This document shows, piece by piece, positions 3-55,221 of a stretch of 64,000 nt of DNA (the stretch's first letter is position 1; every line of letters starts with the position of its first letter). Both the position numbers and the translations under genes were made by a program. Source of the DNA: a virus; IMG/VR virus record IMGVR_UViG_3300036832_000775, positions 8,949 through 72,948 of that record; one strand, 5' to 3'. The notes beneath the pieces were generated by a model. It was not told the origin of the DNA, did no database searches, and worked only from the letters and a program-made list of their open reading frames with translations.

Positions 3-380
3 GAGGACCTGACCGCTGAGTTCTGGCGTAGGGTCGCCGACAACGACCCTTACGACCCCGATTTCGGGCACGATCGAAAGCTCATCTTCGACCTCTTCGT
101 CGAGGGCAAAGGGCCGATCGTCGACCTTAGCGACGACGTCGAGTTCGGGGAAATTCTGCAGGAGCGGGCGCAGCTCAAGCAGGTCGAAAAGGCGGGGGAG
201 TCCGCGACCACTCAGCGAAAGGTCCTTGACGCACGGATCATCAATAAGCTCGGCAACTCCCCCGCCGCCCGCAGCGGCGGCCGCCTGGTGACGATCAAAG
301 TCGTCCGCAAAAAATCCTACCAGGTCAAGGCCACGCAATACCCGCTGGTCACTGTCAAAGGAGTTGAAGATGCCGACTAA
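3..380 (+). CDS. C-terminal part of a YqaJ-like viral exonuclease (5' truncated by window edge)
   Basis: Open frame EDLTAEFWRRV...VTVKGVEDAD* overlapping the recT start; typical exonuclease-RecT pairing. Confidence 0.65.
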   Translation, partial: EDLTAEFWRRVADNDPYDPDFGHDRKLIFDLFVEGKGPIVDLSDDVEFGEILQERAQLKQVEKAGESATTQRKVLDARIINKLGNSPAARSGGRLVTIKVVRKKSYQVKATQYPLVTVKGVEDAD

Positions 381-1665
381 CGGAGCCGGAGGTGCAGCTG
401 GTTCATCGCTGACGATCGCGCAAGAGCTGGGGCAGCGGATGACCCAGTTCGAGGCCGCTTTGGCCGGGAGCGGAGTCTCGCCCAAGAAATTCGCGCGCGT
501 CATCCTGACCGCAATCAACCTCAACCCCGATTTGCTCAACTGCGATCGACGCTCGCTCATGAACGCCGCCCTGAAGGCGGCCGCCGACGGGCTCGCGCCT
601 GATGGGCATGACGGCGCGCTCGTGCCCTTCGAGGGCAAGGTGACCTGGATGCCGATGATCGCCGGGGTCCGAAAGAAGGTCCGGCGTAGCGGCGACGTCA
701 CCGCCTGGGACGTGACTGCCGTTTTCGCGAAGGACCATTTCGACTTTGAGCTCGGCGACAATCCCTGGATCAAGCACAAGCCCTGGATGCCTGGGCAGCT
801 CGATCGCGGCGAGGAAGAGAGCGAGCCAGAATACCTCGCTCGCCTGCGTCGGCATGTCGACCATGGGCCGCTAACTCACGTTTATTCTGTCGCGATGATT
901 AAGGGCGGCGACAAGTCCAGGGACGTCATGTCACGCGCCGAGGTCGAGCTGGTGCGCGACACGTATGCGCGGAAGAACCGCAAGGGCGAGTTCTCGCCGG
1001 CCTGGCGCAAGTCTTTCGCCGAGATGGCCAAAAAGACGGTCGCGCGCCGGCACGCCAAGCAGCTCCCCATGTCTAGCGATATCCTCGGGTTGCTGACGCG
1101 CGACGATGAGCTATATGATTTGGAACGAGAGCGCGGCGAGCGCGTGCAAGCTCCCCGCGAGCTGAGTGCCCGACTAGACTTTCTCGCAGGAGTCGATCCT
1201 GAAACCGGCGAAATAGCGACTTCCGACGACGAGGTGATCGACTCCCTCGTCAAGGAACGCGCGGTCTCCGATGACGCCACTGGGGGTAGGATCCCAGCGG
1301 CCGAGGAGGCCGCGCAGCAATCTGGAGCCCCTCTCCCCGGGGGTTCCAGTGAGCGTGATGGGCCACTAGCAACGAACCCCGTCACGTCGGCACCCGAGCC
1401 GGATGATGTCTCGTCCGACTCGTCCGCGCCACCGGGAGCGGCGGATACCCCCTCGCAAGCTCCCGGTGGGTCGCCTCGGAAGGCCAAGGCGGCGACCCCC
1501 GACCTCCTGAGTCAGAATATCGCGCTGCGCGGCGACGAGATCGCTACGCAAGGCCGCCAGCAGCTAGAACGCTGGGTTAATGAATTGCCCCCGGACGAGA
1601 TGGCGAAAATCTCGTTGGCGCAACTGAAAGCATGGCGCGGCGTCGCTGACAAGGTGGGCGTGTGA
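370..1665 (+). CDS. recT: RecT-family ssDNA annealing protein with long disordered C-terminus
   Basis: LLNCDRRSLMNAALKAAADGL, GALVPF and W...FAEMAKKTVARR..KQLPMS motifs; ATG at 370. Confidence 0.9.
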   Translation: MPTNGAGGAAGSSLTIAQELGQRMTQFEAALAGSGVSPKKFARVILTAINLNPDLLNCDRRSLMNAALKAAADGLAPDGHDGALVPFEGKVTWMPMIAGVRKKVRRSGDVTAWDVTAVFAKDHFDFELGDNPWIKHKPWMPGQLDRGEEESEPEYLARLRRHVDHGPLTHVYSVAMIKGGDKSRDVMSRAEVELVRDTYARKNRKGEFSPAWRKSFAEMAKKTVARRHAKQLPMSSDILGLLTRDDELYDLERERGERVQAPRELSARLDFLAGVDPETGEIATSDDEVIDSLVKERAVSDDATGGRIPAAEEAAQQSGAPLPGGSSERDGPLATNPVTSAPEPDDVSSDSSAPPGAADTPSQAPGGSPRKAKAATPDLLSQNIALRGDEIATQGRQQLERWVNELPPDEMAKISLAQLKAWRGVADKVGV

Positions 1666-3020: not shown

Positions 3021-3476
3021 ATGGCGCTAACACCAGCTGCATTACTTGCGTTCGTTTCGACTGTGTTCATGGCTCGATCCCTGGGCGGGGACCCGCCGAT
3101 CGAGCTGCCGCCGGAGCCCAAGCCGGAGCCGCTGCCGGAGCCCAAGCCCCAGGAGGTGAAGGAACCGGAGCCCGAGGAGGACCCCGCTGCGCGCCACCAG
3201 CGCATCAGCAGGGAGATCGCCTTGCGCCTCGTGAGGGAGAATGTCGATTTGCGCGAACAGCTGATCTGGGAGCGGCACATGCGCGCCCAGCTCGAAGTGG
3301 AGCTCGCGCGGCGCAGCCAGCAGCTCGCCGCCCAGCAAGCGCCCATCCCCCTCGTGATGCCATCCGACGCCCAGCGCCAGCTGCTGGGAGCGCAAGTGCA
3401 ATTTGGTTTCTGCACGTGCGTTCCCGGCCGCGCCGACGCGCTGCGTGGCCCGCAGCCTCATCGGATCGTTGGATGA
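3021..3476 (+). CDS. Hypothetical protein with Pro/Glu-rich linker
   Basis: Strong AAGGAGGAGG RBS; EPKPEP repeats. Confidence 0.7.
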   Translation: MALTPAALLAFVSTVFMARSLGGDPPIELPPEPKPEPLPEPKPQEVKEPEPEEDPAARHQRISREIALRLVRENVDLREQLIWERHMRAQLEVELARRSQQLAAQQAPIPLVMPSDAQRQLLGAQVQFGFCTCVPGRADALRGPQPHRIVG

Positions 3477-3676
3477 CCAAGTGCATCTGCGGCGAGGAGC
3501 ACGAGCGTCACCCCGTCCCTCTGCTGAGCATGGGGCTCTCGACGACCGACGAAGTGGTCAGCGTCGAGCCCTTCACGGCCGAGGACGGGCGCCGCGCTTG
3601 GCGCTGCGTCATGGCTGACGGCGTCAGGGAGATCGTTGTCGAGCTCCGCGAGGCTCCGGCTAAGGGGGACGCTTAA
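3473..3676 (+). CDS. Hypothetical protein
   Basis: ATGA-coupled start MTKCICGEEH. Confidence 0.55.
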   Translation: MTKCICGEEHERHPVPLLSMGLSTTDEVVSVEPFTAEDGRRAWRCVMADGVREIVVELREAPAKGDA

Positions 3677-3677
3677 A

Positions 3678-3950
3678 GTGCCGAAGCTTTGTCCCAGTTG
3701 CGGGCTCACGAAGCCTCTAACCGAGTTCAATATCCGCATACGTGATTTTGAGTTGATCCCGAGATGTCGAGCGTGCTGCGCCTCAGTTCATGCAGAGTGG
3801 CGTGCCGACAATCGTGAAGGCCTGCTTGAATACAACCGCGCCTACAATAAGACGCGCCCGAAGCGATCTATCCCAAGAGAAAAGGCGACTGCAGCTCAAC
3901 GAAGATGGCGAGCAAAGCGGCGGGCTCTCCTGCTGGGAACTCCGCTATGA
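3678..3950 (+). CDS. Zn-binding basic protein resembling an HNH-associated N-terminal domain, no nuclease motif
   Basis: CPSCGLTKPLTEF...RCRAC followed by a basic helix. Confidence 0.55.
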   Translation: MPKLCPSCGLTKPLTEFNIRIRDFELIPRCRACCASVHAEWRADNREGLLEYNRAYNKTRPKRSIPREKATAAQRRWRAKRRALLLGTPL

Positions 3951-4480
3951 AGCGCGAATGTGGAGACTGCCAGCTCTGCTGCAAATTGCTCCCCGTAAAA
4001 GGGATCAACAAGCCGGCGCTCACCCGCTGCCCGCATCAGCGCCACCACAAGGGGTGCGCCGTCTACCATAAGCCCGAGAAAGGCTTTCCATGGGAGTGCG
4101 GCCTATGGAATTGCGCCTGGCTGCAGAACATTGACGCGGCGGAGCTGCGCCGCCCGGATCGATCCAACTACGTGATCGATGTCATGCCCGATTACCTCAC
4201 GGCAGAGGGCGCCGATGGACAGAACATCGTGCTCCCCGCCGTCCAGATCTGGGCCGATCCAAAATACCCTGACTGTCACCGGGACCCCGAGCTGCGGGCA
4301 TGGCTCGTGCGCCGCCGGGGCTTTGTGGGGCTCGTCCGCTACGGGGCCTACGACGCCATCACGCTTATCCCGCCGTACATGATGGAGAACGGCGAGTGGC
4401 TTGAGAAGCGCAACGGCAATGTGCTTGAGAAGACGCATTCGTTCGGCCAGGTCCTCGAAGCCTTGAGCACTGTCGGATGA
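3947..4480 (+). CDS. YkgJ-like CxxCxxCC metal-cluster protein
   Basis: RECGDCQLCCK...RCPHQ...GCAVY...ECGLWNCAWL. Confidence 0.7.
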   Translation: MKRECGDCQLCCKLLPVKGINKPALTRCPHQRHHKGCAVYHKPEKGFPWECGLWNCAWLQNIDAAELRRPDRSNYVIDVMPDYLTAEGADGQNIVLPAVQIWADPKYPDCHRDPELRAWLVRRRGFVGLVRYGAYDAITLIPPYMMENGEWLEKRNGNVLEKTHSFGQVLEALSTVG

Positions 4481-4776
4481 AGCGCGCCGCCATCGCTGTG
4501 ATCGCCATCACATTGGCGCTCGAGCCGGCCGCCGCGGCGAAATGCCATCATTTCAGCATTTGGAAATATCCCTGGCGGCAGAGCTGCCGGATGACCGCGC
4601 TCGCGCCGTCCTCGATACGCTCTCGGGCCAGGATCAACGTCATCCTGCCGGTGCCACGGCCTATTGAAATCCCCCTCCCCGATCTCACGAACATCGACTG
4701 GGGCCAGCTCCCCGACGATGACGCGCGCGGCAGGCTGATGCTGCGCGCAACTCTCCAAGGAAAGGAAGACAAATGA
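4477..4776 (+). CDS. Small protein with signal peptide
   Basis: MKRAAIAVIAITLALEPAAAA; coupled start. Confidence 0.6.
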   Translation: MKRAAIAVIAITLALEPAAAAKCHHFSIWKYPWRQSCRMTALAPSSIRSRARINVILPVPRPIEIPLPDLTNIDWGQLPDDDARGRLMLRATLQGKEDK

Positions 4777-5114
4777 GTGACGAAGCCCACCACACGGAGC
4801 CCCTAACCGTCGGTCACGGACGCCACGATTATTCCACCGCAGCGACCTTCAACGAGCCAACGCAGCTCCGGCGCATGATCAGCGCGATCCCACCGAAGGT
4901 GGAAGAGATCCCTCACGACGCCGACGCCGAGATCGCCGCCGCGGCGACAGCTGCAGCGAATCACCGCTCCGAGGCCCGCCGTGACGCCGTCCTGGCGGTT
5001 GCGCTGGCTATCGCGCGGCGCGGTCAGAGCCCCGTCTCAGACTGGACGACGCGAGACACGGATACGGCTTACGCGATAGCCGACCAGCTCATCGCCCTGG
5101 GGCAAACTACCTAG
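4773..5114 (+). CDS. Hypothetical protein, last of the rightward operon
   Basis: ATGA coupling, RBS. Confidence 0.65.
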   Translation: MSDEAHHTEPLTVGHGRHDYSTAATFNEPTQLRRMISAIPPKVEEIPHDADAEIAAAATAAANHRSEARRDAVLAVALAIARRGQSPVSDWTTRDTDTAYAIADQLIALGQTT

Positions 5115-8075: not shown

Positions 8076-9089
8076 TCACCATTTGATCATCTTCATCGTT
8101 GTGCTTGTCGGCTGAACATTGTTGTGGGCCACCCAGCTGCCCTGCGCGGCGACGACAATGTTGGCGTAGCCGGTCCCGACATAGACGCCATTGGCGCTCG
8201 CGCCGCTCGTCGTCACATTGGTGAACTGCCAGCCGTTGCCGGGAGCGATGTTGGGGCCGAGGGCGCTGCCGTTGCCGACATTCGGGACATTGTGCGTGTG
8301 CGCGTCCTGCGAGGCGGAGTGGCCATGGCCCGAGTCGCCGCTGCCAGGATGGTTGTGTCCAGGCATCTCCGCGACCGATATCTGATGGGTCGCCTCGCCA
8401 CCCGCGTTGACCCCCACTCCCCAGCTGTAGAGGATGCCGCGGTTGCCGGCGTTGGCGGCGTAAGGTCCCTGGCCAGGGACGGTGCCGATCTGGTCCGCCA
8501 TCGCGAGCACGGTCCCGCGATAATCCGGCATCTTGAAGTAAGGGCCGCTGACGCCCCAGGTCCCGCCGACGACGTCGTACAGGATGTCGTGCAGAGACTG
8601 GAAGACCCACCGACCGTCGCATGGGATCCAGCCGTTCCCGCACCATCCAGTCGGGAAATCGGCGATCGTCCCAGGGCTGCACTGGCCATAATCCCAATGA
8701 ACGCGCCAGGGCAGGACGACGATGCCGTAAGGGATGCCGAACCCGGTCCAGAAATAGATGCCGTTCGTGTCTTGGCCGTTGTTCCCGCGCACGTAGATGG
8801 TGAAACCGTTGAGGTTGACGCTCGGCATGATGATGCGGCGGCCGGCGATCGGCGGGAAGTAGACGTATTGATCGCTGCTGAGCGTGCCCGTCAGGAAGAT
8901 GATCGGGTTGGAGGCCTCGGCGAGCGTGAGCTGGTGCGTGCCGCCTGACACGGCGAGGCTGAGATAGCCGCCATACGCCGTGTCGAGCGTAGTGAGCGAG
9001 CTATCCATCGGCGTGTCCCAGCCGGTCGTCGCGTAGTCGCCGTGACCAGGGATCTCGAGGCGGAGGTTGGGGGTGAAGGTTGAGGTCAT
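8076..9089 (-). CDS. Tail fibre protein with tail-collar domain
   Basis: GTIADF...GWIPCDGR...LYDVVGGTWG...FKMPDYRG; GGEATHQISVAEMPGHNH; HNNVQP. Confidence 0.85.
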   Translation of the reverse strand: MTSTFTPNLRLEIPGHGDYATTGWDTPMDSSLTTLDTAYGGYLSLAVSGGTHQLTLAEASNPIIFLTGTLSSDQYVYFPPIAGRRIIMPSVNLNGFTIYVRGNNGQDTNGIYFWTGFGIPYGIVVLPWRVHWDYGQCSPGTIADFPTGWCGNGWIPCDGRWVFQSLHDILYDVVGGTWGVSGPYFKMPDYRGTVLAMADQIGTVPGQGPYAANAGNRGILYSWGVGVNAGGEATHQISVAEMPGHNHPGSGDSGHGHSASQDAHTHNVPNVGNGSALGPNIAPGNGWQFTNVTTSGASANGVYVGTGYANIVVAAQGSWVAHNNVQPTSTTMKMIKW

Positions 9090-9096
9090 GGCAACC

Positions 9097-9123
9097 TTGC
9101 AAATCGTGCAAATTGAACTATGT
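9097..9123 (+). promoter_or_regulatory. Operator TTGCA-N5-TGCAA overlapping a sigma70-like promoter
   Basis: TTGCAAATCGTGCAA at 9097-9111; CTTGCA-N16-CTATGT. Confidence 0.55.
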
Positions 9124-9149
9124 GGAGGTGTCCTACAGGAGTCGAACCC

Positions 9150-9497
9150 GTGAACATCACGCTATCCGTCCTCGCCGCGCTGATCATCTTCAGCTGGCTC
9201 CAGAACCCATTTGTTGAGCGGCTGATTGCAGTCGCCGGGCTCGGCGCCCTCGCGCTAGCCGCGATCTTCTTTGTCGGAGCGCTCGGCACGATGGGCCCGC
9301 CGCAACCGGAACAGGTCATGCGGCCGATGCCGCCGGGGTTCGCCGAACGCATGACAGTCGTCATCTATATTGTTCTCCTCCTGTATTCGGCGGCCATTTG
9401 GGGCCTCATCGCGGTTGTCCGGAAGGTCCAGCGCCGCCGACAACAGCGGACGCCAACGGCCCTGACCCCGCGACAAGGCTATTCTCTACGCCCCTAA
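9150..9497 (+). CDS. Counter-oriented 3-TM membrane moron
   Basis: GTG start after GGAGTCGAA RBS; three hydrophobic segments; own promoter. Confidence 0.7.
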   Translation: MNITLSVLAALIIFSWLQNPFVERLIAVAGLGALALAAIFFVGALGTMGPPQPEQVMRPMPPGFAERMTVVIYIVLLLYSAAIWGLIAVVRKVQRRRQQRTPTALTPRQGYSLRP

Positions 9498-51300: not shown

Positions 51301-52974
51301 TCAGATCGGATAGAGCGGCGCCGGCGGCATCGGCGACGCCATCAGCTCGGCATAGTTCTCCATCTCCACCTCGGACGATTTCTTTAACAAGCCCCGATCG
51401 CGCAGCCACTTCAACGCCTGGCAGACCGCATCCGGAATATCGTCATGCTTGCCCTTGGGGAAAGAAGCCATCTGCGACATCGCCAGCTCCGCCCAGTCCC
51501 GCGGCCAGACCGCCCCATTCCCCTGCGTCTGCGCCGGCACCCACATGACCCCCTTGCGAATCGACCCGTCAGCCTCCTCCTCGCCCCACAAATGCGTCAG
51601 GGCATGCGCCCGCGCCACCTTGTCCATGTTCAGCGGGTCAATTCGCTGCACCGCAAACTCCTCGTCCCGCGTCAGCCGCTGCACCTCCTGCGCAACCGAA
51701 ATCCCAGACCCCTTGTTCTCAATCAACAGCCGGTGAACCTTCAACTTCCGGCTGCCCTTGATCACCTCCGCAACCAAATCCGCCAGCGGCAGCCGCTTCT
51801 GCCAGCAGCTCATCAGCATCGCTTGCTGGACCCCATGATGATTGTTGAAAACGCCCATAATCACGAACGCGGAATAATCGTTCTCCTGCTTCTCGCCATA
51901 GGCCGGGTCCAACGACCCCAAAATGATGTCAAAGTCCGGAAATTGGCTCTCGTTGCGCCCATAGGTCACCGCGATCGACCGCGACCACAGCTCCCACCCA
52001 TTGTACGAAAATAGCCCGCCGCCCCGCGGCGCCGGCCGCTGCTGATACTGCCCAGCCCAAGCGAACTTCTCCATGTCCCGCTTGAGATTGTCGACCTCCT
52101 GCCGACCCCACCGCTCCGAAAACAAGAGCTCCCCATCCGACCGGCGAGGATCCGAAAACCCAATCGACGTCTCGCAATGCCGCCCGCTCTCGTACTCCAT
52201 CGGCAAAACTAGCTGCACATAATCCGGCATGAACTCCTGGATCACCCCCGAAATGTCCCCCTCATGCAATCGCTGCATGATCACAACAATCGCGCTCCGC
52301 GCCTGATCATTGAGCCGGTTCACCGCCCCCTCTCTGAACCTCCTGGTCGCCTTCTCCCGATCCGTCTGACTCTCCGCCTTCTCCACAGAGTGCGGATCAT
52401 CGAGGATAAGCCGATCGCCGCGCCGACTCGTCAAACTCCCAAACGCAACCCCGTCCCGCGTCCCCGTCAGCGTGTTCTCAAAACTCAATTCCCCAAATCG
52501 CGTCAGCTCCACATGCGGCCAATGCCGCTGATACCAATCACTCGTCACCAACGTCCGCATCTTCCGGACGTCCCGAACAACCGCCGTCTCCGCAAAAGAA
52601 CTGGAGATATACCGGTAACTCGTCAGACCCTTCGGCCCCCACTCCCACGCCGGCCAAAACACGCTCACCAAAAGGCTCTTCGCGCTCCCAGGCGGGACAT
52701 TGATCAGAAGCCGCGTGATCAGGCCGGCGGTGACAGCTTCGAGGTGCTCGCAAATCGCATCAATCAACCAACCGTGTACATACCGCCGGTTCGGCTCCAA
52801 AACATGCCAAGCCTCCTGAACAAACGCCGCAAAACTAACCCGACACTTCTCCCGAACCGTCGTGATGCTCTCCGACGCCTCGATCCGACTCACCCCCAAT
52901 TCCCGCCGCATCAACTCCGCCACCACCGCCTCGTGACTCGGCATCGCGCTCGACCTTGGCATGCTCGCCCTCAA
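51301..52974 (-). CDS. terL: Terminase large subunit (start may be 52962 or 52944)
   Basis: LLINVPPGSAKS Walker A, LILDDPH Walker B, IVVIMQRLHEGD, YQQRP, FPKGKHDDIPDA. Confidence 0.95.
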   Translation of the reverse strand: MRASMPRSSAMPSHEAVVAELMRRELGVSRIEASESITTVREKCRVSFAAFVQEAWHVLEPNRRYVHGWLIDAICEHLEAVTAGLITRLLINVPPGSAKSLLVSVFWPAWEWGPKGLTSYRYISSSFAETAVVRDVRKMRTLVTSDWYQRHWPHVELTRFGELSFENTLTGTRDGVAFGSLTSRRGDRLILDDPHSVEKAESQTDREKATRRFREGAVNRLNDQARSAIVVIMQRLHEGDISGVIQEFMPDYVQLVLPMEYESGRHCETSIGFSDPRRSDGELLFSERWGRQEVDNLKRDMEKFAWAGQYQQRPAPRGGGLFSYNGWELWSRSIAVTYGRNESQFPDFDIILGSLDPAYGEKQENDYSAFVIMGVFNNHHGVQQAMLMSCWQKRLPLADLVAEVIKGSRKLKVHRLLIENKGSGISVAQEVQRLTRDEEFAVQRIDPLNMDKVARAHALTHLWGEEEADGSIRKGVMWVPAQTQGNGAVWPRDWAELAMSQMASFPKGKHDDIPDAVCQALKWLRDRGLLKKSSEVEMENYAELMASPMPPAPLYPI

Positions 52975-53443
52975 TCATCACTGGATGTCCCGCCAACGGC
53001 CGCAAAGCCCGCTCCAACTCAATCAGCTGCGGCACACTCAGCCGGCTCAAATCCGGCCCATCTTCCCGATCCCCACGCGGCGCCGCCCAAATCGCACCCC
53101 CGCGCCGCTCTAACCAAAACTTCGCCATCCCAGGATCAGCCTGCCGCCAATTCTTCTCCGGACCCCCTACCCCCATCAAATACGCCGACTGCGCCATCTC
53201 ATTCGTCCGCCTCGCGTCCCCCTTAATCATGCAATCCCGATACCGCCGATACAGCCGATCCGGCGCCAATCCCGTCAGCAGGGAGATCTGCGCCGCTCCC
53301 AACCCGTTCGCACTCATCTCCTCAATCGAACGCTCCATGTCCGCAGCCGCAGCCCGACGCTTCAACGCCAAAGCCGCCGAACGCTCCGACGTCCCCGCCG
53401 CCCGCGGTCTCAAATTCTTTAATGACGTCTCGGATACGGACAT
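52835..53443 (-). CDS. terS: Terminase small subunit
   Basis: SLKNLRP, HTH, AKFWLERRG, DLSRLS; upstream of terL. Confidence 0.75.
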   Translation of the reverse strand: MSVSETSLKNLRPRAAGTSERSAALALKRRAAAADMERSIEEMSANGLGAAQISLLTGLAPDRLYRRYRDCMIKGDARRTNEMAQSAYLMGVGGPEKNWRQADPGMAKFWLERRGGAIWAAPRGDREDGPDLSRLSVPQLIELERALRPLAGHPVMIEGEHAKVERDAESRGGGGGVDAAGIGGESDRGVGEHHDGSGEVSG

Positions 53444-53677
53444 TGTTTTCGGGTCCCATCATATTTCCCGGAGAGGGTTAATCGGAATTTAGCTTCGTGG
53501 GGGCGCTCCCCCCCCCCTCTTCCACCCATGGGCACGCCATCATAGGGGCACGCATCGCGCCACGCATATGCCTGCCCTGCCTGGGCGCATGCAGATCCCA
53601 GGCGGCCTGGCGTCAACATCGCGCAGAGCGCATGCAATATCAAGCGCTTGCGCTGCGCCGGCGACGAGCTCGAGCTG

Positions 53678-53699
53678 CTGTACCCCAGCCTGTACCCCG
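53678..53699. repeat. Tandem CTGTACCCC(A/G) pair matching the attP arm repeats
   Basis: 12-bp spacing, as at 62349/62361 and 62575/62587. Confidence 0.65.
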
Positions 53700-53747
53700 A
53701 TCGATGGCCGGCGCGAGCCGGCCTGGCGCGGGACGCCAGCCACGCGC

Positions 53748-54083
53748 CAAACGACACTCGTTCAGTCCCGGCGGGTGAAGGACCTGGCGGGGGAAGAGTC
53801 GCGAAGGCAAACGCTGGGGCGCACTCTTTCTCTGGGAGCGAGGGACGGAGCCGAAAGCGGAGCGTCCCGTAGGGTTCGGCGAGGTCCTGAAGCGGGCAGA
53901 AAAGGACACTGGCGGGACATAGAGCGTCCTTGTTTGATCGTGCGCGCGGGAGAGCAGCTAACGATTCCGGACAGTGGTGGCGCGTCGGTTGGGACCTCGC
54001 TTCGCGCCGCCACAAGGGCGGTCGGTCCCGCCCTCTGCTGCCCGACGTGAGGGCATAACGGGCGGTGGAGGCTTGCCGCGCGC
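53748..54083 (+). ncRNA. Candidate large structured ncRNA
   Basis: At least nine nested helices with G-U pairs favouring the + strand; no credible ORF. Confidence 0.55.
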
Positions 54084-54521
54084 GCGCGAGGCGGCGCGGG
54101 GACAATGGCGATTTTGCTGGGTTGGGCAAAATCAATTTTTATAACCCTGTCAGGGCAAGCGCTTGCGAGGGCTGTGGCTGGGGTTTGGGATTGACCGAGC
54201 TGTGGGGCTGTAGATTGCTTTGGGGCTGTTCTGAGCGATTTATGGGGCTTGGCGGGGCCGTTCTGGCGTGCTTCATTTGCATGGTCTGCAAGCTTGGGAG
54301 GGCTGCAATGGCGCCGAGGTATGCTCCTGCGATTTTCCCCGCTTTGGCTTCGTCTCCGATCAAACGGCGTCGTTTGGCCAAGGTGCGGCTGATGCGCGCC
54401 GATCGCTCCATCGCTCGCCGCGAGGCGCTCGCGCTTCAACGTCAATTTGGGAAGACTTGGGCCGAGGCGGAGGCCTGGGCCAATTCGCTCGTGCGAGGGG
54501 AATCCGATGAATGATCCCCTT

Positions 54522-54551
54522 GCGATCCTAAGCGATCCTAAGCGATCCTAA
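54522..54551. repeat. (GCGATCCTAA)x3 tandem repeat
   Basis: Perfect 10-bp period. Confidence 0.9.
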
Positions 54552-54568
54552 GTGAGGGAGGAGCGGAA

Positions 54569-54757
54569 TTGAGCGAGAAACCGATTGTCGAGATCCGCGG
54601 GCTCGATATCCAGTGGATCGAGGTTTCGGGCGACCGCGAGGGGTTCGCGGAGGAGAAGGCGGCCTGGCGGATTCAGGTGCGGCGCGAGGGCGAAACCGAG
54701 TGGACGACGATCCCAGTGATCACGGTTGCTGGGCCGCCGGAGGACATGGAGAAATAG
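54569..54757 (+). CDS. Hypothetical protein
   Basis: GGGAGGAG RBS before TTG. Confidence 0.55.
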   Translation: MSEKPIVEIRGLDIQWIEVSGDREGFAEEKAAWRIQVRREGETEWTTIPVITVAGPPEDMEK

Positions 54758-54995
54758 CGCCTCTATCGTGGGAGAAAAAATTAACGTGGCCCATAGCAAG
54801 GACATCGCTCTGCGTAAGGCGCGCACAAAGGGCTATTGGAGGTGGAGGTGCCGCTGCGAACGGCTGGGCCTCGATTGGACCGATCGAGAGGTCCGGAGAG
54901 CTTACGCAGCCAATCCTCGCACCGGCCGCTTCCGCAACAAAGGCCTCTATTGGTGGCTGCATCCCGATGAGAACAAGGGCGGGGCGTAGAACCGT

Positions 54996-55084
54996 TGTCC
55001 CGGCAATGTCCCTCTTGTGTCCCGGGACAGAGGCGGGACAAATCGCCTGCCTAGACGGACCTGGCTGGGGACGTGAGCGGGACA
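54996..55084. repeat. 11-bp phased TGTCCC/GGGACA array centred on palindrome TGTCCCGGGACA
   Basis: TGTCCC at 54996, 55007, 55018; GGGAC(A/G) at 55024, 55035, 55068, 55079. Confidence 0.85.
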
Positions 55085-55221
55085 GGCTTTCGGACGGGCT
55101 ATAATAAAAAGTGCGATAATCGCGACGTTTTCCTCGGAAACCCCTTGTTTCCCTGGGGCTCAGCCCCATTTACGAGTCTCGTCGGCTTTCCTACCAGGCC
55201 GGCGCAGAAACGGAGTCGAAA

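What the first reader, a model, noticed from the sequence alone, without database searches (positions are those of the whole stretch)
53748..54083. ~340-nt multi-helix RNA candidate beside terS
Seen: two nested domains in ORF-poor DNA. Domain 1: CAAAC..GTCCCG..GTG (53748-77) with CAC..CGGGAC..GTTTG (53907-36); AGGACCT/AGGTCCT (53779-85/53882-88); GGGGGAAGAGT/ACTCTTTCTCT (53789-99/53823-33); GGGACG/CGTCCC (53842-47/53863-68). Domain 2: CGCGCGG/CCGCGCG (53943-49/54076-82); GTGGTGGCGCG/CGCGCCGCCAC (53974-84/54003-13); AGGGCGG/CCGCCCT (54015-21/54028-34); TGCCC/GGGCA (54039-43/54051-55). Mismatches resolve as G-U on the + strand and the junctions are purine-rich. I see no RNase P, tmRNA, SRP or intron core motifs. 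Inference: an unclassified phage ncRNA, perhaps involved in packaging, priming or antitermination. High GC inflates chance stems.
Basis: partly seen in the sequence, partly recalled or inferred. Interest (0 to 1): 0.8.

Follow-up and report, generated by a model that had tools for sequence, protein, structure and literature searches.

The report
Conserved hairpin module in phage control region
A roughly 370-base non-coding stretch beside the terminase genes of an uncultured temperate soil phage is conserved in its relatives and holds at least one hairpin kept by compensating mutations, but whether it acts as an RNA or as part of the phage's DNA replication and promoter control region is still open.

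Summary
The + strand folds better than shuffles (z -2.95, 1 of 100; - strand -0.67). The element is conserved: 16 distinct homologues, all in one clade of soil-phage contigs, always next to and divergent from the putative terS. There is no Rfam match.

The proposed two-domain fold is not conserved (49.5% of cells paired against 48.6% shuffled). Three others have modest or fitted support.

Hairpin X carries an invariant GCG-N-AGC tip in 12 of 12 sequences. This is the DNA mini-hairpin motif reported at phage and plasmid initiation sites.

The element is also packed with GGGAC(A) sites. The same motif forms 11-bp-phased arrays over early-promoter-like sequences about 1.1 kb away in the window and in each of the ten relatives examined.

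The covarying stem pairs are almost all Watson-Crick. Fold z-scores show no strand bias across 11 homologues. I found no promoter, and a strict terminator only in the window.

My best reading (about 0.4) is a DNA-level origin/operator module with strand-specific hairpin signals. A free-standing ncRNA (about 0.33) or a pre-primer RNA (about 0.12) remain live. RNA-seq and origin mapping would decide.

The parts
52835..53443 (-). Putative small terminase (terS). Named from its position upstream of, and overlapping, terL (51301-52974), not from any family hit.
   Evidence: ORF list. Conserved at 56-67% identity in 9 relatives. No PHROG or Pfam hit.
53499..53551 (.). G5-CGCT-C10 near-palindrome (53499-53517) and two GGGCAC copies (53530-35, 53546-51). 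Relatives carry up to six GGCAC copies at 11-13 bp spacing. This is a possible terminase or regulator binding region and lies outside the element.
   Evidence: Read. Function not tested.
53728..53734 (+). The 5'-most GGGAC copy (GCGGGAC). It is the candidate 5' strand of a long-range helix P1, pairing with 54025-54031.
   Evidence: the GGGAC/GUCCC core is complementary in 11 of 11, with 2 of 11 showing a G.A at the first pair. It is invariant. Flanking positions pair no better than permuted partners (47.0% against 47.9%). RNAalifold pairs anchor G with a different GGGAC. P1 is therefore hypothetical.
53753..53798 (+). Conserved island A (GACACTCGTT, 53753-62) and two tandem copies of island B (53767-81 and 53782-98). 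Part of A can pair with part of B; this is helix P2.
   Evidence: In 9 of 11 homologues P2 has 5-7 pairs including about 2 G.U per helix. Two columns change on both sides between the two subtypes. The register was set by hand.
53785..53809 (+). Small helix P3 (53785-88 with 53806-09).
   Evidence: Predicted by RNAalifold; 80.0% paired against 73.8% (11 of 500 shuffles as high); covariation score 0.336 against 0.206 (3 of 500); slide controls 9-52%. In the window, 3 of its 4 pairs form.
53842..53868 (+). Base GGGACG/CGTCCC; tip motif GCGGAGC at 53857-63.
   Evidence: 12 sequences: 85.6% paired against 74.5% (0 of 500 shuffles as high); 11 of 18 pairs change on both sides; slide controls 43-54%; inner positions 89.1% against 62.0% (0 of 2000); z from -2.3 to -5.8 in 11 of 11. 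The tip GCG-N-AGC is invariant in 12 of 12.
53904..53918 (+). Motif D: a tandem GGAC-N6-GGGAC with 11-bp period. It is the best conserved block of the element.
53991..54000 (+). Conserved island F (GGGACCTCGC).
   Evidence: Exact in 6 of the 11 non-redundant homologues, with 1-2 mismatches in 3 more.
54006..54022 (+). Hairpin G (GCCGCC / GGCGGT).
   Evidence: a hairpin of different sequence sits at this place in the relatives; 85.5% paired against 49.4% permuted (0 of 2000). The register was fitted by folding, so that figure is biased upward; segment z of -2 or lower in 5 of 11.
54025..54031 (+). Anchor G (GTCCCGC): conserved, and the candidate 3' strand of P1.
54098..54143 (+). GGGGACA (54098-54104), then a terminator-like hairpin (54110-54133), then a T-rich / AT-rich block.
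   Evidence: An AT-rich block is conserved at this place in the relatives, as read. By strict criteria a hairpin plus U-run is found here in only 1 of 11.
54192..54249 (.). Iteron-like TGGGGCT repeats, 18-40 bp apart.
   Evidence: families D2 and D3. L008 has a different 9-mer three times at 21-bp spacing.
54997..55105 (.). Second GGGAC cluster. GTCCC three times and GGGAC twice plus twice, all at 11-bp phase. It is followed by TATAAT at 55100-05 and the first rightward gene at 55222.
   Evidence: The same arrangement sits 1.1-1.3 kb from D in each of the ten relatives examined.

Best explanation
Setting. The stretch is one module of the phage's main non-coding control region. That region runs 53444-55221, between the leftward structural genes and the rightward early genes.

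Proposed mechanism, all inferred. Its conservation is mostly at the DNA level. The many GGGAC(A) copies would be binding sites for a phage DNA-binding protein, either a regulator or a replication initiator. The same protein would occupy the phased arrays over the early-promoter-like sequences about 1.1 kb to the right.

Between these sites lie hairpins selected for pairing. The clearest is hairpin X, whose invariant GCG-N-AGC tip is the DNA mini-hairpin motif. I read these hairpins as strand-specific signals that form when the + strand is unwound. That would resemble the single-strand initiation hairpins of G4 and RSF1010, or the N4 hairpin promoters. The signals would sit next to an AT-rich block and iteron-like repeats, and would serve the phage's own primase/helicase.

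What is shown. The element is conserved. Hairpin X covaries. The tip is invariant. The motif is shared with the promoter-region arrays. The phage encodes a primase/helicase-like protein.

What is inferred. Protein binding, hairpin formation in DNA, and origin function.
For: 1. GGGAC is not enriched in the window as a whole (164 found, 165 expected). But 8 copies lie in 53730-54103 and 7 in 54997-55083.

2. The tandem form GGAC-N6-GGGAC occurs 6 times against 0.71 expected (0 of 100 shuffles reach 6). Five of the six are in this intergenic stretch.

3. Each of the ten relatives examined repeats the second cluster, and eight of them also carry motif D; L084 and L102 lack it. In the second cluster the motif abuts or overlaps -10-like and -35-like hexamers, as read by eye. 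One such promoter scored 10 of 12 in L008. This argues for a dsDNA-binding role.

4. The tip GCG-N-AGC is invariant in 12 of 12 (N = A six times, G four, C two). A 2026 review (PMC13037366, passages read) reports GCGNAGC and GCGNNAGC as extraordinarily stable DNA mini-hairpins. It places them at the G4 primase start site, in RSF1010 ssiA, and in N4 hairpin promoters (GCGGAGC). It reports the RNA versions as much less stable.

5. In the covarying part of X (alignment columns 11-16), pairs are 40 Watson-Crick, 1 G.U and 1 mismatch.

6. Mean fold z is -2.79 on the + strand and -2.27 on the - strand. The + strand is better in only 6 of 11.

7. No sigma-70-like promoter was found for the element. 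A strict terminator at the 3' end occurs in only 1 of 11.

8. An AT-rich block and iteron-like repeats follow the element.

9. The phage is temperate (an integrase gene). It encodes a primase/helicase-like protein and a RecE/RecT pair.
Against: There is no direct evidence of protein binding, DNA hairpin extrusion or origin activity.

The GGGAC arrays over promoters look like operators rather than origin iterons.

Spacing between D and the F copy of GGGAC varies from 72 to 89 nt among homologues. So there is no fixed helical phasing inside the element.

Helices P2 and P3 contain many G.U pairs and some two-sided changes. That fits RNA better than DNA.

Long conserved unpaired islands (A, B, E, F) unrelated to GGGAC need further unexplained binding proteins under this reading.

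Variable-length stems with a conserved base and tip are typical of RNAs.

The window does have a good hairpin plus U-run on the + strand right after the element. In the window itself the + strand folds clearly better than the - strand.
Confidence: 0.4

Rival explanations
1. A free-standing structured ncRNA of about 330-400 nt, transcribed rightwards on the + strand. It would have several conserved hairpins (P2, P3, X, G), perhaps closed by P1, and would end near 54140. Its function is unknown. It could act in trans in early/late or lysis/lysogeny control, with motif D serving as an operator that governs its synthesis.
For: Hairpin X covaries. P3 has modest covariation and wobble pairs. P2 has about 2 G.U per helix and two columns with two-sided changes. 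A hairpin of different sequence sits at the place of hairpin G in each lineage.

In the covarying helices I counted roughly 35 G.U cells against about 4 A.C cells on the + strand, by hand. This points to the + strand.

In the window, z is -2.95 on + against -0.67 on -. A terminator-like hairpin plus U-run follows at 54110-54143.

Conserved unpaired islands between variable helices are the usual signature of structured RNAs. The region is non-coding.
Against: No promoter was found. The terminator is not conserved (1 of 11 by strict criteria). Fold z-scores show no strand bias across homologues.

No overall consensus fold emerges: RNAalifold gives 9 pairs and -6 kcal/mol on 13 sequences. The covarying stem of X has almost no G.U.

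Few of the hairpin loops I read in the family are GNRA or UNCG type (by eye). The tip motif is reported as far more stable in DNA than in RNA.

GGGAC copies sit at the helix bases and in D with the same 11-bp spacing as in the promoter-region arrays.
Confidence: 0.33
2. A pre-primer or origin-activating transcript. The + strand would be transcribed through the structured region into the G-rich or (CG)n tail and the AT-rich block. There the RNA would stay hybridised and prime or activate replication. This works like ColE1 RNA II or the T4 and T7 transcription-dependent origins; the comparison is recalled from general knowledge, not from a call.
For: A G-rich or (CG)n tail, then an AT-rich block, then iteron-like repeats lie directly downstream. 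This reading combines the RNA-like features with the origin-like context. The phage encodes a primase/helicase-like protein.
Against: No promoter was found. The tail comes in two unrelated sequence types. There is no homology to any known primer RNA. It shares the other weaknesses of the ncRNA reading.
Confidence: 0.12
3. A leader of the late (terS-terL) mRNA on the - strand, with the structure acting in late-gene control.
For: The helices are mostly Watson-Crick, so they also fold on the - strand (mean z -2.27). terS lies directly to the left.
Against: G.U pairs in P2, P3 and at the base of X become A.C on the - strand. The tip motif is strand-specific. In the window, the - strand has z = -0.67. 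Promoter-like sites directed toward terS in L008 lie between the element and terS, not beyond the element.
Confidence: 0.05
4. Chance stems in GC-rich spacer DNA with no function.
For: High GC content inflates stems.
Against: nhmmer recovers the region at E from 1e-60 to 1e-88 in relatives whose neighbouring non-coding DNA has diverged. Hairpin X covaries (0 of 500 and 0 of 2000 shuffles as high).
Confidence: 0.03

Closest known systems
Single-strand initiation hairpins tipped by DNA mini-hairpins: the G4 complementary-strand origin, RSF1010 ssiA, and the N4 virion-RNAP hairpin promoters
   Same: A stem-loop whose tip is GCG-N-AGC or a close variant, including GCGGAGC, the form reported for N4. 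It is strand-specific. It sits in a replication or transcription initiation region of a phage that has its own primase/helicase, with iteron-like repeats and an AT-rich block nearby. Sources: PMC13037366, passages read.
   Different: Those elements are 30-60 nt. They belong to ssDNA phages, a plasmid, or a phage with a giant virion RNAP. I saw no giant ORF here; the largest is 1343 aa. Here the hairpin sits inside a conserved module of about 370 nt in a temperate tailed phage, and its stem varies from 6 to 20 bp. Function is untested.
Large ornate phage-associated RNAs (GOLLD, ROOL)
   Same: Large, multi-hairpin, phage-borne, and of unknown function. Sources: abstracts seen only in the search listing (PMC12286853, PMC5737381).
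   Different: No match to any Rfam model. No well-supported global fold. Narrow distribution in one soil-phage clade. Located in the divergent control region rather than beside tRNAs; that last point is recalled, not checked.
phi29 packaging RNA (pRNA)
   Same: The element lies beside the putative terS.
   Different: No Rfam match. The element is divergent from terS, and its motifs tie it to the early promoters rather than to packaging. pRNA belongs to protein-primed phi29-like phages without terS; this is recalled, not checked.
Operator or iteron arrays of temperate phages and iteron plasmids
   Same: Short asymmetric sites repeated in direct and inverted arrays at one helical turn, overlapping promoters. 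A second cluster lies about 1 kb away, allowing looping. The comparison itself is recalled.
   Different: Such arrays are not normally interleaved with covarying hairpins.
ColE1 RNA II pre-primer
   Same: A structured transcript of several hundred nt running into a G-rich stretch and an origin. This comparison is recalled.
   Different: No sequence or structural homology. No promoter or RNase H site identified.

Membership tests
Any Rfam 15 family (including pRNA, GOLLD, ROOL, HEARO, c4, RNase P, tmRNA, 6S, introns) | Match to the family covariance model at or near its gathering score | tested here: not met
   0 hits on the whole window. In 53300-55300 at E up to 10, only a CRISPR-DR28 hit at 21.4 bits against a gathering score of 35, E 0.99. 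9 related loci gave only tRNAs and one hammerhead elsewhere.
Structured ncRNA (generic) | Helices supported by compensatory changes across homologues | tested here: inconclusive
Met for hairpin X. Modest for P3. Fitted or hand-registered for G and P2. No global consensus fold.
Structured ncRNA (generic) | Evidence of a discrete transcript (promoter, terminator, reads) | tested here: inconclusive
   Promoter scans found 0. A strict terminator occurs in 1 of 11. Read-level expression could not be tested with these tools.
Structured ncRNA (generic) | Strand bias of folding energy | tested here: not met
   Mean z is -2.79 on + and -2.27 on -. The + strand is better in 6 of 11. The window alone shows a bias.
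DNA mini-hairpin-tipped initiation signal (G4 ori / ssiA / N4 promoter type) | GCGNAGC or GCGNNAGC at the tip of a stem-loop | tested here: met
   Invariant G-C-G-N-A-G-C in 12 of 12 aligned X hairpins. The motif definition comes from PMC13037366.
DNA mini-hairpin-tipped initiation signal (G4 ori / ssiA / N4 promoter type) | Recognition by a primase or RNA polymerase on single-stranded DNA, with initiation nearby | not testable with these tools
   Only a primase/helicase-like gene could be shown (record 3217-5037; phrog_906 at 5.6e-32, phrog_239 at 2.9e-18).
Iteron-type origin / operator array | Short motif repeated far above chance, phased by a helical turn | tested here: met
   GGAC-N6-GGGAC occurs 6 times against 0.71 expected. 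Seven GGGAC copies at 11-bp phase in 54997-55083. Conserved in the relatives.
Iteron-type origin / operator array | Binding by a cognate protein; origin or operator activity | not testable with these tools
Rho-independent terminator (54110-54143) | GC-containing stem, short loop, U-run | tested here: met
   9-bp stem, 6-nt loop, then AATTTTTATA. The scan found 3 sites against 1.7 expected from shuffles, so this is weak on its own.

The most novel reading that the evidence does not exclude
The stretch encodes a new class of phage ncRNA of about 330-400 nt. So far it is confined to a clade of temperate soil phages. It would be built from covarying hairpins (X, G, P2, P3) around conserved junctions, and it would carry in its folded stems and loops the same GGGAC(A) motif that forms the phage's early-promoter operator arrays. 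The RNA could then act as a decoy or partner for the phage's master regulator, or as the origin's pre-primer.
Probability: 0.3. Interest if true: 0.7.

Novelty: new member of a known kind. Interest (0 to 1): 0.45.

Why it matters
If the DNA-level reading is right, this clade shows an unusual origin/operator design for a tailed temperate phage. It would combine covarying stem-loops tipped by the GCG-N-AGC mini-hairpin with phased arrays of a 5-6 bp site. That design offers testable handles on how uncultured soil phages start replication and set early transcription.

If the RNA reading is right, this is a new large phage ncRNA tied to the phage's main regulatory motif.

Either way, the case warns that conserved hairpins with covariation in phage control regions need not be RNA genes. 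Catalogues of candidate viral structured RNAs may contain such DNA-level elements. One catalogue built from IMG/VR lists 8,495 motifs of 29-151 nt (PMC10690425, passages read).

Tried and rejected
Searches that found nothing useful:
- Rfam gathering and E-value scans: nothing useful.
- blastn of the region against 50,697 phage records: no match.
- terL tblastn against the same records: best identity 43%, so no cultured close relative and no host.
- A protein-pattern scan of 185,579 species genomes for terS relatives: 97 stretches, none confirmed.
- A DNA pattern (D plus F motifs) in genome contigs: 120 stretches, and in viral contigs: 71. nhmmer over all 310 loci held found no family member beyond contigs already known, plus a weak full-length hit in L004. 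None of the 120 genome hits matched.
- The look-up of sequencing runs: no RNA holder listed.

Methods that failed:
- Structure-aware MAFFT (Q-INS-i, X-INS-i) is not installed.
- A full-length covariance model was not attempted.
- RNAalifold on sequence-based alignments gave a long-range B-F helix with 6 sequences but only 9 pairs with 13 sequences.
- MAFFT did not bring hairpin G into register, so no formal count was made for it.

Ideas I dropped:
- The B-F pairing. L007, L095 and the L084 group change B in a way that extends A-B pairing but weakens B-F. L006 and L095 lose two B-F pairs without compensation (read).
- P1 flank covariation: none.
- Pairings around the conserved GCTAATG block (with D, with the block before it, or with the block after it). 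Each holds in some lineages and fails in others, so none was adopted (hand reading).
- Complementarity between the C-run near terS and the G-rich 3' tail. Striking in L007 by eye, absent in the window-type tails, and not tested formally.
- A sigma-54-like reading of the GGCAC repeats and an IHF-like reading of the AT-rich block. Both were partial matches from recalled consensus sequences, so I dropped them.
- An N4-like giant RNAP: no ORF above 1343 aa.
- D as a promoter. A -10-like hexamer follows D in some relatives but not in the window, L002, L010 or L008, and the spacing differs from that at the early-promoter-like sites.
Full report
**Context**

The window is part of a 72.9-kb IMG/VR virus record, estimated 93% complete. 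Structural genes run leftward from terL (51301-52974) and a 202-aa ORF (52835-53443). I call that ORF terS from its position only, because it has no PHROG or Pfam hit.

Rightward genes start with a small ORF at 54569-54757. Next come a PAPS-reductase-like gene (55222-56031; phrog_424, 7e-34) and a queuine-tRNA-ribosyltransferase-like gene (56097-56951; phrog_887, 3e-29).

The phage also has an integrase, a RecE/RecT pair and a primase/helicase-like protein. It is therefore temperate and brings part of its own replication machinery.

The finding lies in the main divergent non-coding region, 53444-55221. That region shows no GC3 periodicity. None of the 5 overlapping ORFs tested has a family hit. 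None of the 6 ORFs overlapping 53419-55169 that I searched has a tblastn match in the relatives.

**Checking the observation**

The + strand of 53748-54083 folds at -166.6 kcal/mol, z = -2.95, with 1 of 100 shuffles as good. The - strand gives z = -0.67.

Rfam gives nothing. There were 0 gathering-level hits on the window. In 53300-55300 the only hit was a chance-level CRISPR repeat match at E 0.99.

**Relatives**

- A terL search of IMG/VR gave 11 close relatives at 60-86% identity among the 80 loci kept.
- A terS-profile search added 21 metagenome loci and 19 viral loci. It found none in 185,579 species genomes.
- blastn showed only short collinear islands of similarity between the window and the relatives.
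- A profile of six aligned regions then recovered the whole element at E from 1e-43 to 1e-81. This gave 16 distinct sequences: 12 full-length, and 4 that match only the first 110-140 profile columns.
- A refined profile also found a divergent copy in L004, and nothing in the 191 loci from two loose pattern scans.
- In every locus oriented by terS or terL, the element lies 190-680 nt upstream of terS on the opposite strand.
- I found no cultured close relative. The best terL identity in 50,697 phage records is 43%.

As a whole, no. On a 13-sequence MAFFT alignment, helices a-d and f-h pair in 49.5% of cells. Shuffled partners give 48.6% (94 of 500 as high). Slid partners give 42.5-46.6%.

That test depends on the alignment. 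MAFFT misplaces the window's helix d, and RNAalifold on the same alignment finds only 9 pairs.

I read the homologues module by module. The conserved layout is as follows.
- A 5' GGGAC copy.
- Island A (GACACTCGTT).
- Island B (GGAACCAGCGGGGAA type; two tandem copies in the window).
- A variable hairpin region.
- Hairpin X.
- Motif D (GGGACA-N5-GGGACA, plus about 12 more conserved bases).
- A block around GCTAATG.
- Island F (GGGACCTCGC).
- Hairpin G.
- Anchor G (CTCCGTCCCT type).
- One of two unrelated 3' tails, either G-tracts or a (CG)n run.
- A last GGGGACA.
- An AT-rich block.

- Helices a and b rest on window-specific sequence.
- Helix e needs the (CG)n tail, which only 4 of 11 homologues have.
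- Helices f and g compete with hairpin G.

**What is supported**

- I registered 11 non-redundant sequences on the GGGAC/GUCCC base. L086 and L088 were dropped as near-identical to L010 and L008.
- Inner positions 5-9 pair in 89.1% of cells, against 62.0% when partner strands are permuted among sequences (0 of 2000 as high).
- On a MAFFT alignment of 12 X hairpins, the formal count is 85.6% against 74.5% (0 of 500 as high). Of 18 pairs, 11 change on both sides. The covariation score is 0.217 against 0.103. Slide controls give 43-54%.
- The L084 group replaces the whole stem with an unrelated complementary sequence but keeps the tip.
- Each X segment folds better than its shuffles, with z from -2.3 to -5.8 in 11 of 11.

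*P3 (window 53785-88 with 53806-09).* 80.0% paired against 73.8% (11 of 500 as high). Covariation score 0.336 against 0.206 (3 of 500 as high).

*Hairpin G.* A hairpin of different sequence sits between F and anchor G in most lineages. Pairing is 85.5% against 49.4% permuted. I set the register by folding each sequence, which inflates that figure. The segment z is -2 or lower in only 5 of 11.

*P2 (part of A with part of B).* 5-7 pairs in 9 of 11, with about 2 G.U each. Two columns differ on both sides between the two subtypes. The register was set by hand.

*P1 (5' GGGAC with anchor G).* It is complementary in all sequences but invariant. Its flanks pair no better than chance (47.0% against 47.9%). 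RNAalifold prefers a different GGGAC as the partner. The single closed domain is therefore unproven.

**Observations pointing away from a simple RNA gene**

1. *The GGGAC motif.* It is at chance level in the window overall (164 found, 165 expected). But there are 8 copies in 53730-54103 and 7 in 54997-55083. In the second cluster they stand at 11-bp phase: three on the - strand, then two plus two on the + strand. TATAAT follows at 55100-05, and the first early gene at 55222.

2. *The tandem form.* GGAC-N6-GGGAC occurs 6 times against 0.71 expected, and 5 of the 6 are here.

3. *Conservation of the second cluster.* Each of the ten relatives examined has the same second cluster 1.1-1.3 kb to the right of D. 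It lies 150-450 nt upstream of the first rightward gene. By eye, the motif abuts a conserved -10-like TGTAATAAGG or TGTATATAAGG. It also brackets a TTGACC-N17-TATTTA-like promoter. One such promoter scored 10 of 12 in L008. The motif thus behaves like a dsDNA operator or iteron, and D has the same spacing.

4. *The tip of X.* It is G-C-G-N-A-G-C in 12 of 12 (N = A six times, G four, C two). A 2026 review (PMC13037366; abstract start, passages) describes GCGNAGC and GCGNNAGC as extraordinarily stable DNA mini-hairpins. [quoted passage not shown] Its examples are the G4 primase start site, RSF1010 ssiA, and N4 hairpin promoters with GCGGAGC. It reports the RNA versions as much less stable.

5. 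*Pair types in X.* The covarying pairs of X are 40 Watson-Crick, 1 G.U and 1 mismatch.

6. *No strand bias.* Across 11 homologues the mean fold z is -2.79 on + and -2.27 on -. The + strand is better in 6 of 11.

7. *No transcription signals.* No sigma-70-like promoter was found in the window region, L007 or L006. A strict hairpin plus U-run at the homologous 3' end occurs only in the window. What is conserved at that place is an AT-rich sequence block. Iteron-like repeats follow it in the window, and a different repeat follows in L008.

**Observations in favour of RNA**

- P2 and P3 contain wobble pairs.
- In the registered helices I counted roughly 35 G.U cells against about 4 A.C cells on the + strand, by hand. 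Many of these are the same conserved pair. This fixes the folding strand as +, but single-stranded DNA would tolerate G.T as well.
- The window shows a clear strand bias and has a terminator.
- Conserved unpaired islands between helices of variable length are typical of RNAs.

**Verdict**

The element is real, conserved and partly structured. It matches no known family.

I weigh the readings as follows:
- DNA-level origin/operator module with + strand hairpin signals: about 0.40.
- Free-standing ncRNA: about 0.33.
- Pre-primer or origin-activating transcript: about 0.12.
- Late-mRNA leader on the - strand: about 0.05.
- Chance: about 0.03.

No expression data could be obtained: no RNA holder was listed. 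The supplements of the one catalogue that might already list hairpin X (PMC10690425) were closed.

Noticed in passing
window 54997-55105: A phased array of the GGGAC motif: GTCCC three times, then GGGAC twice plus twice, all 11 bp apart. It sits directly upstream of a TATAAT and the first early gene. The same arrangement, with two promoter-like sites, is conserved in each of the ten relatives examined. It is probably the early operator/promoter region.
   Followed up: partly
window 53499-53551; relatives: A G5-CGCT-C10 near-palindrome about 55 nt from the terS start. It is followed by GGCAC repeats: 2 copies here, and up to 6 copies at 11-13 bp spacing in the relatives. These are candidate terminase recognition (cos/pac) or regulator sites.
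   Followed up: no
window 54192-54249: TGGGGCT-containing repeats, iteron-like and 18-40 bp apart, just after an AT-rich block. L008 has a different 9-mer three times at 21-bp spacing at a comparable place.
   Followed up: partly
window 54522-54555: Three tandem copies of a 10-bp unit (GCGATCCTAA) ending 13 nt before the start of the 62-aa ORF at 54569.
   Followed up: no
L084:271-332 (- strand of the locus, which is the rightward direction in window orientation): A type II hammerhead ribozyme hit just above Rfam's gathering score (39.3 against 37 bits), in the early region of a relative. The window has none.
   Followed up: no
window 55222-56951: A PAPS-reductase-like gene and a queuine-tRNA-ribosyltransferase-like (DpdA-like) gene open the early operon. 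This suggests a DNA-modification module, possibly of the 7-deazaguanine type; the type is my recollection and was not tested.
   Followed up: no
window 61090-62331 (-), 364-1665 (+); record G000:C1:3217-5037 (-), 8300-9328 (+): Integrase, RecT-like, primase/helicase-like and RecE-like genes. The phage is temperate and carries its own recombination and priming functions.
   Followed up: partly
window 52835-53443: The putative terS has no PHROG or Pfam hit, although it is conserved at 56-67% identity in relatives. It may belong to an undescribed small-terminase family.
   Followed up: no
L006:3506-3523, L008:3154-3167 (locus + strand, which is leftward in window orientation): A conserved hairpin plus T-run between the two early-promoter-like sites. 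It reads as a terminator for leftward transcription entering the non-coding region.
   Followed up: no
L004:8257-8329, L007:9386-9459, L111:5761-5833: tRNA genes downstream of terL in three relatives.
   Followed up: no
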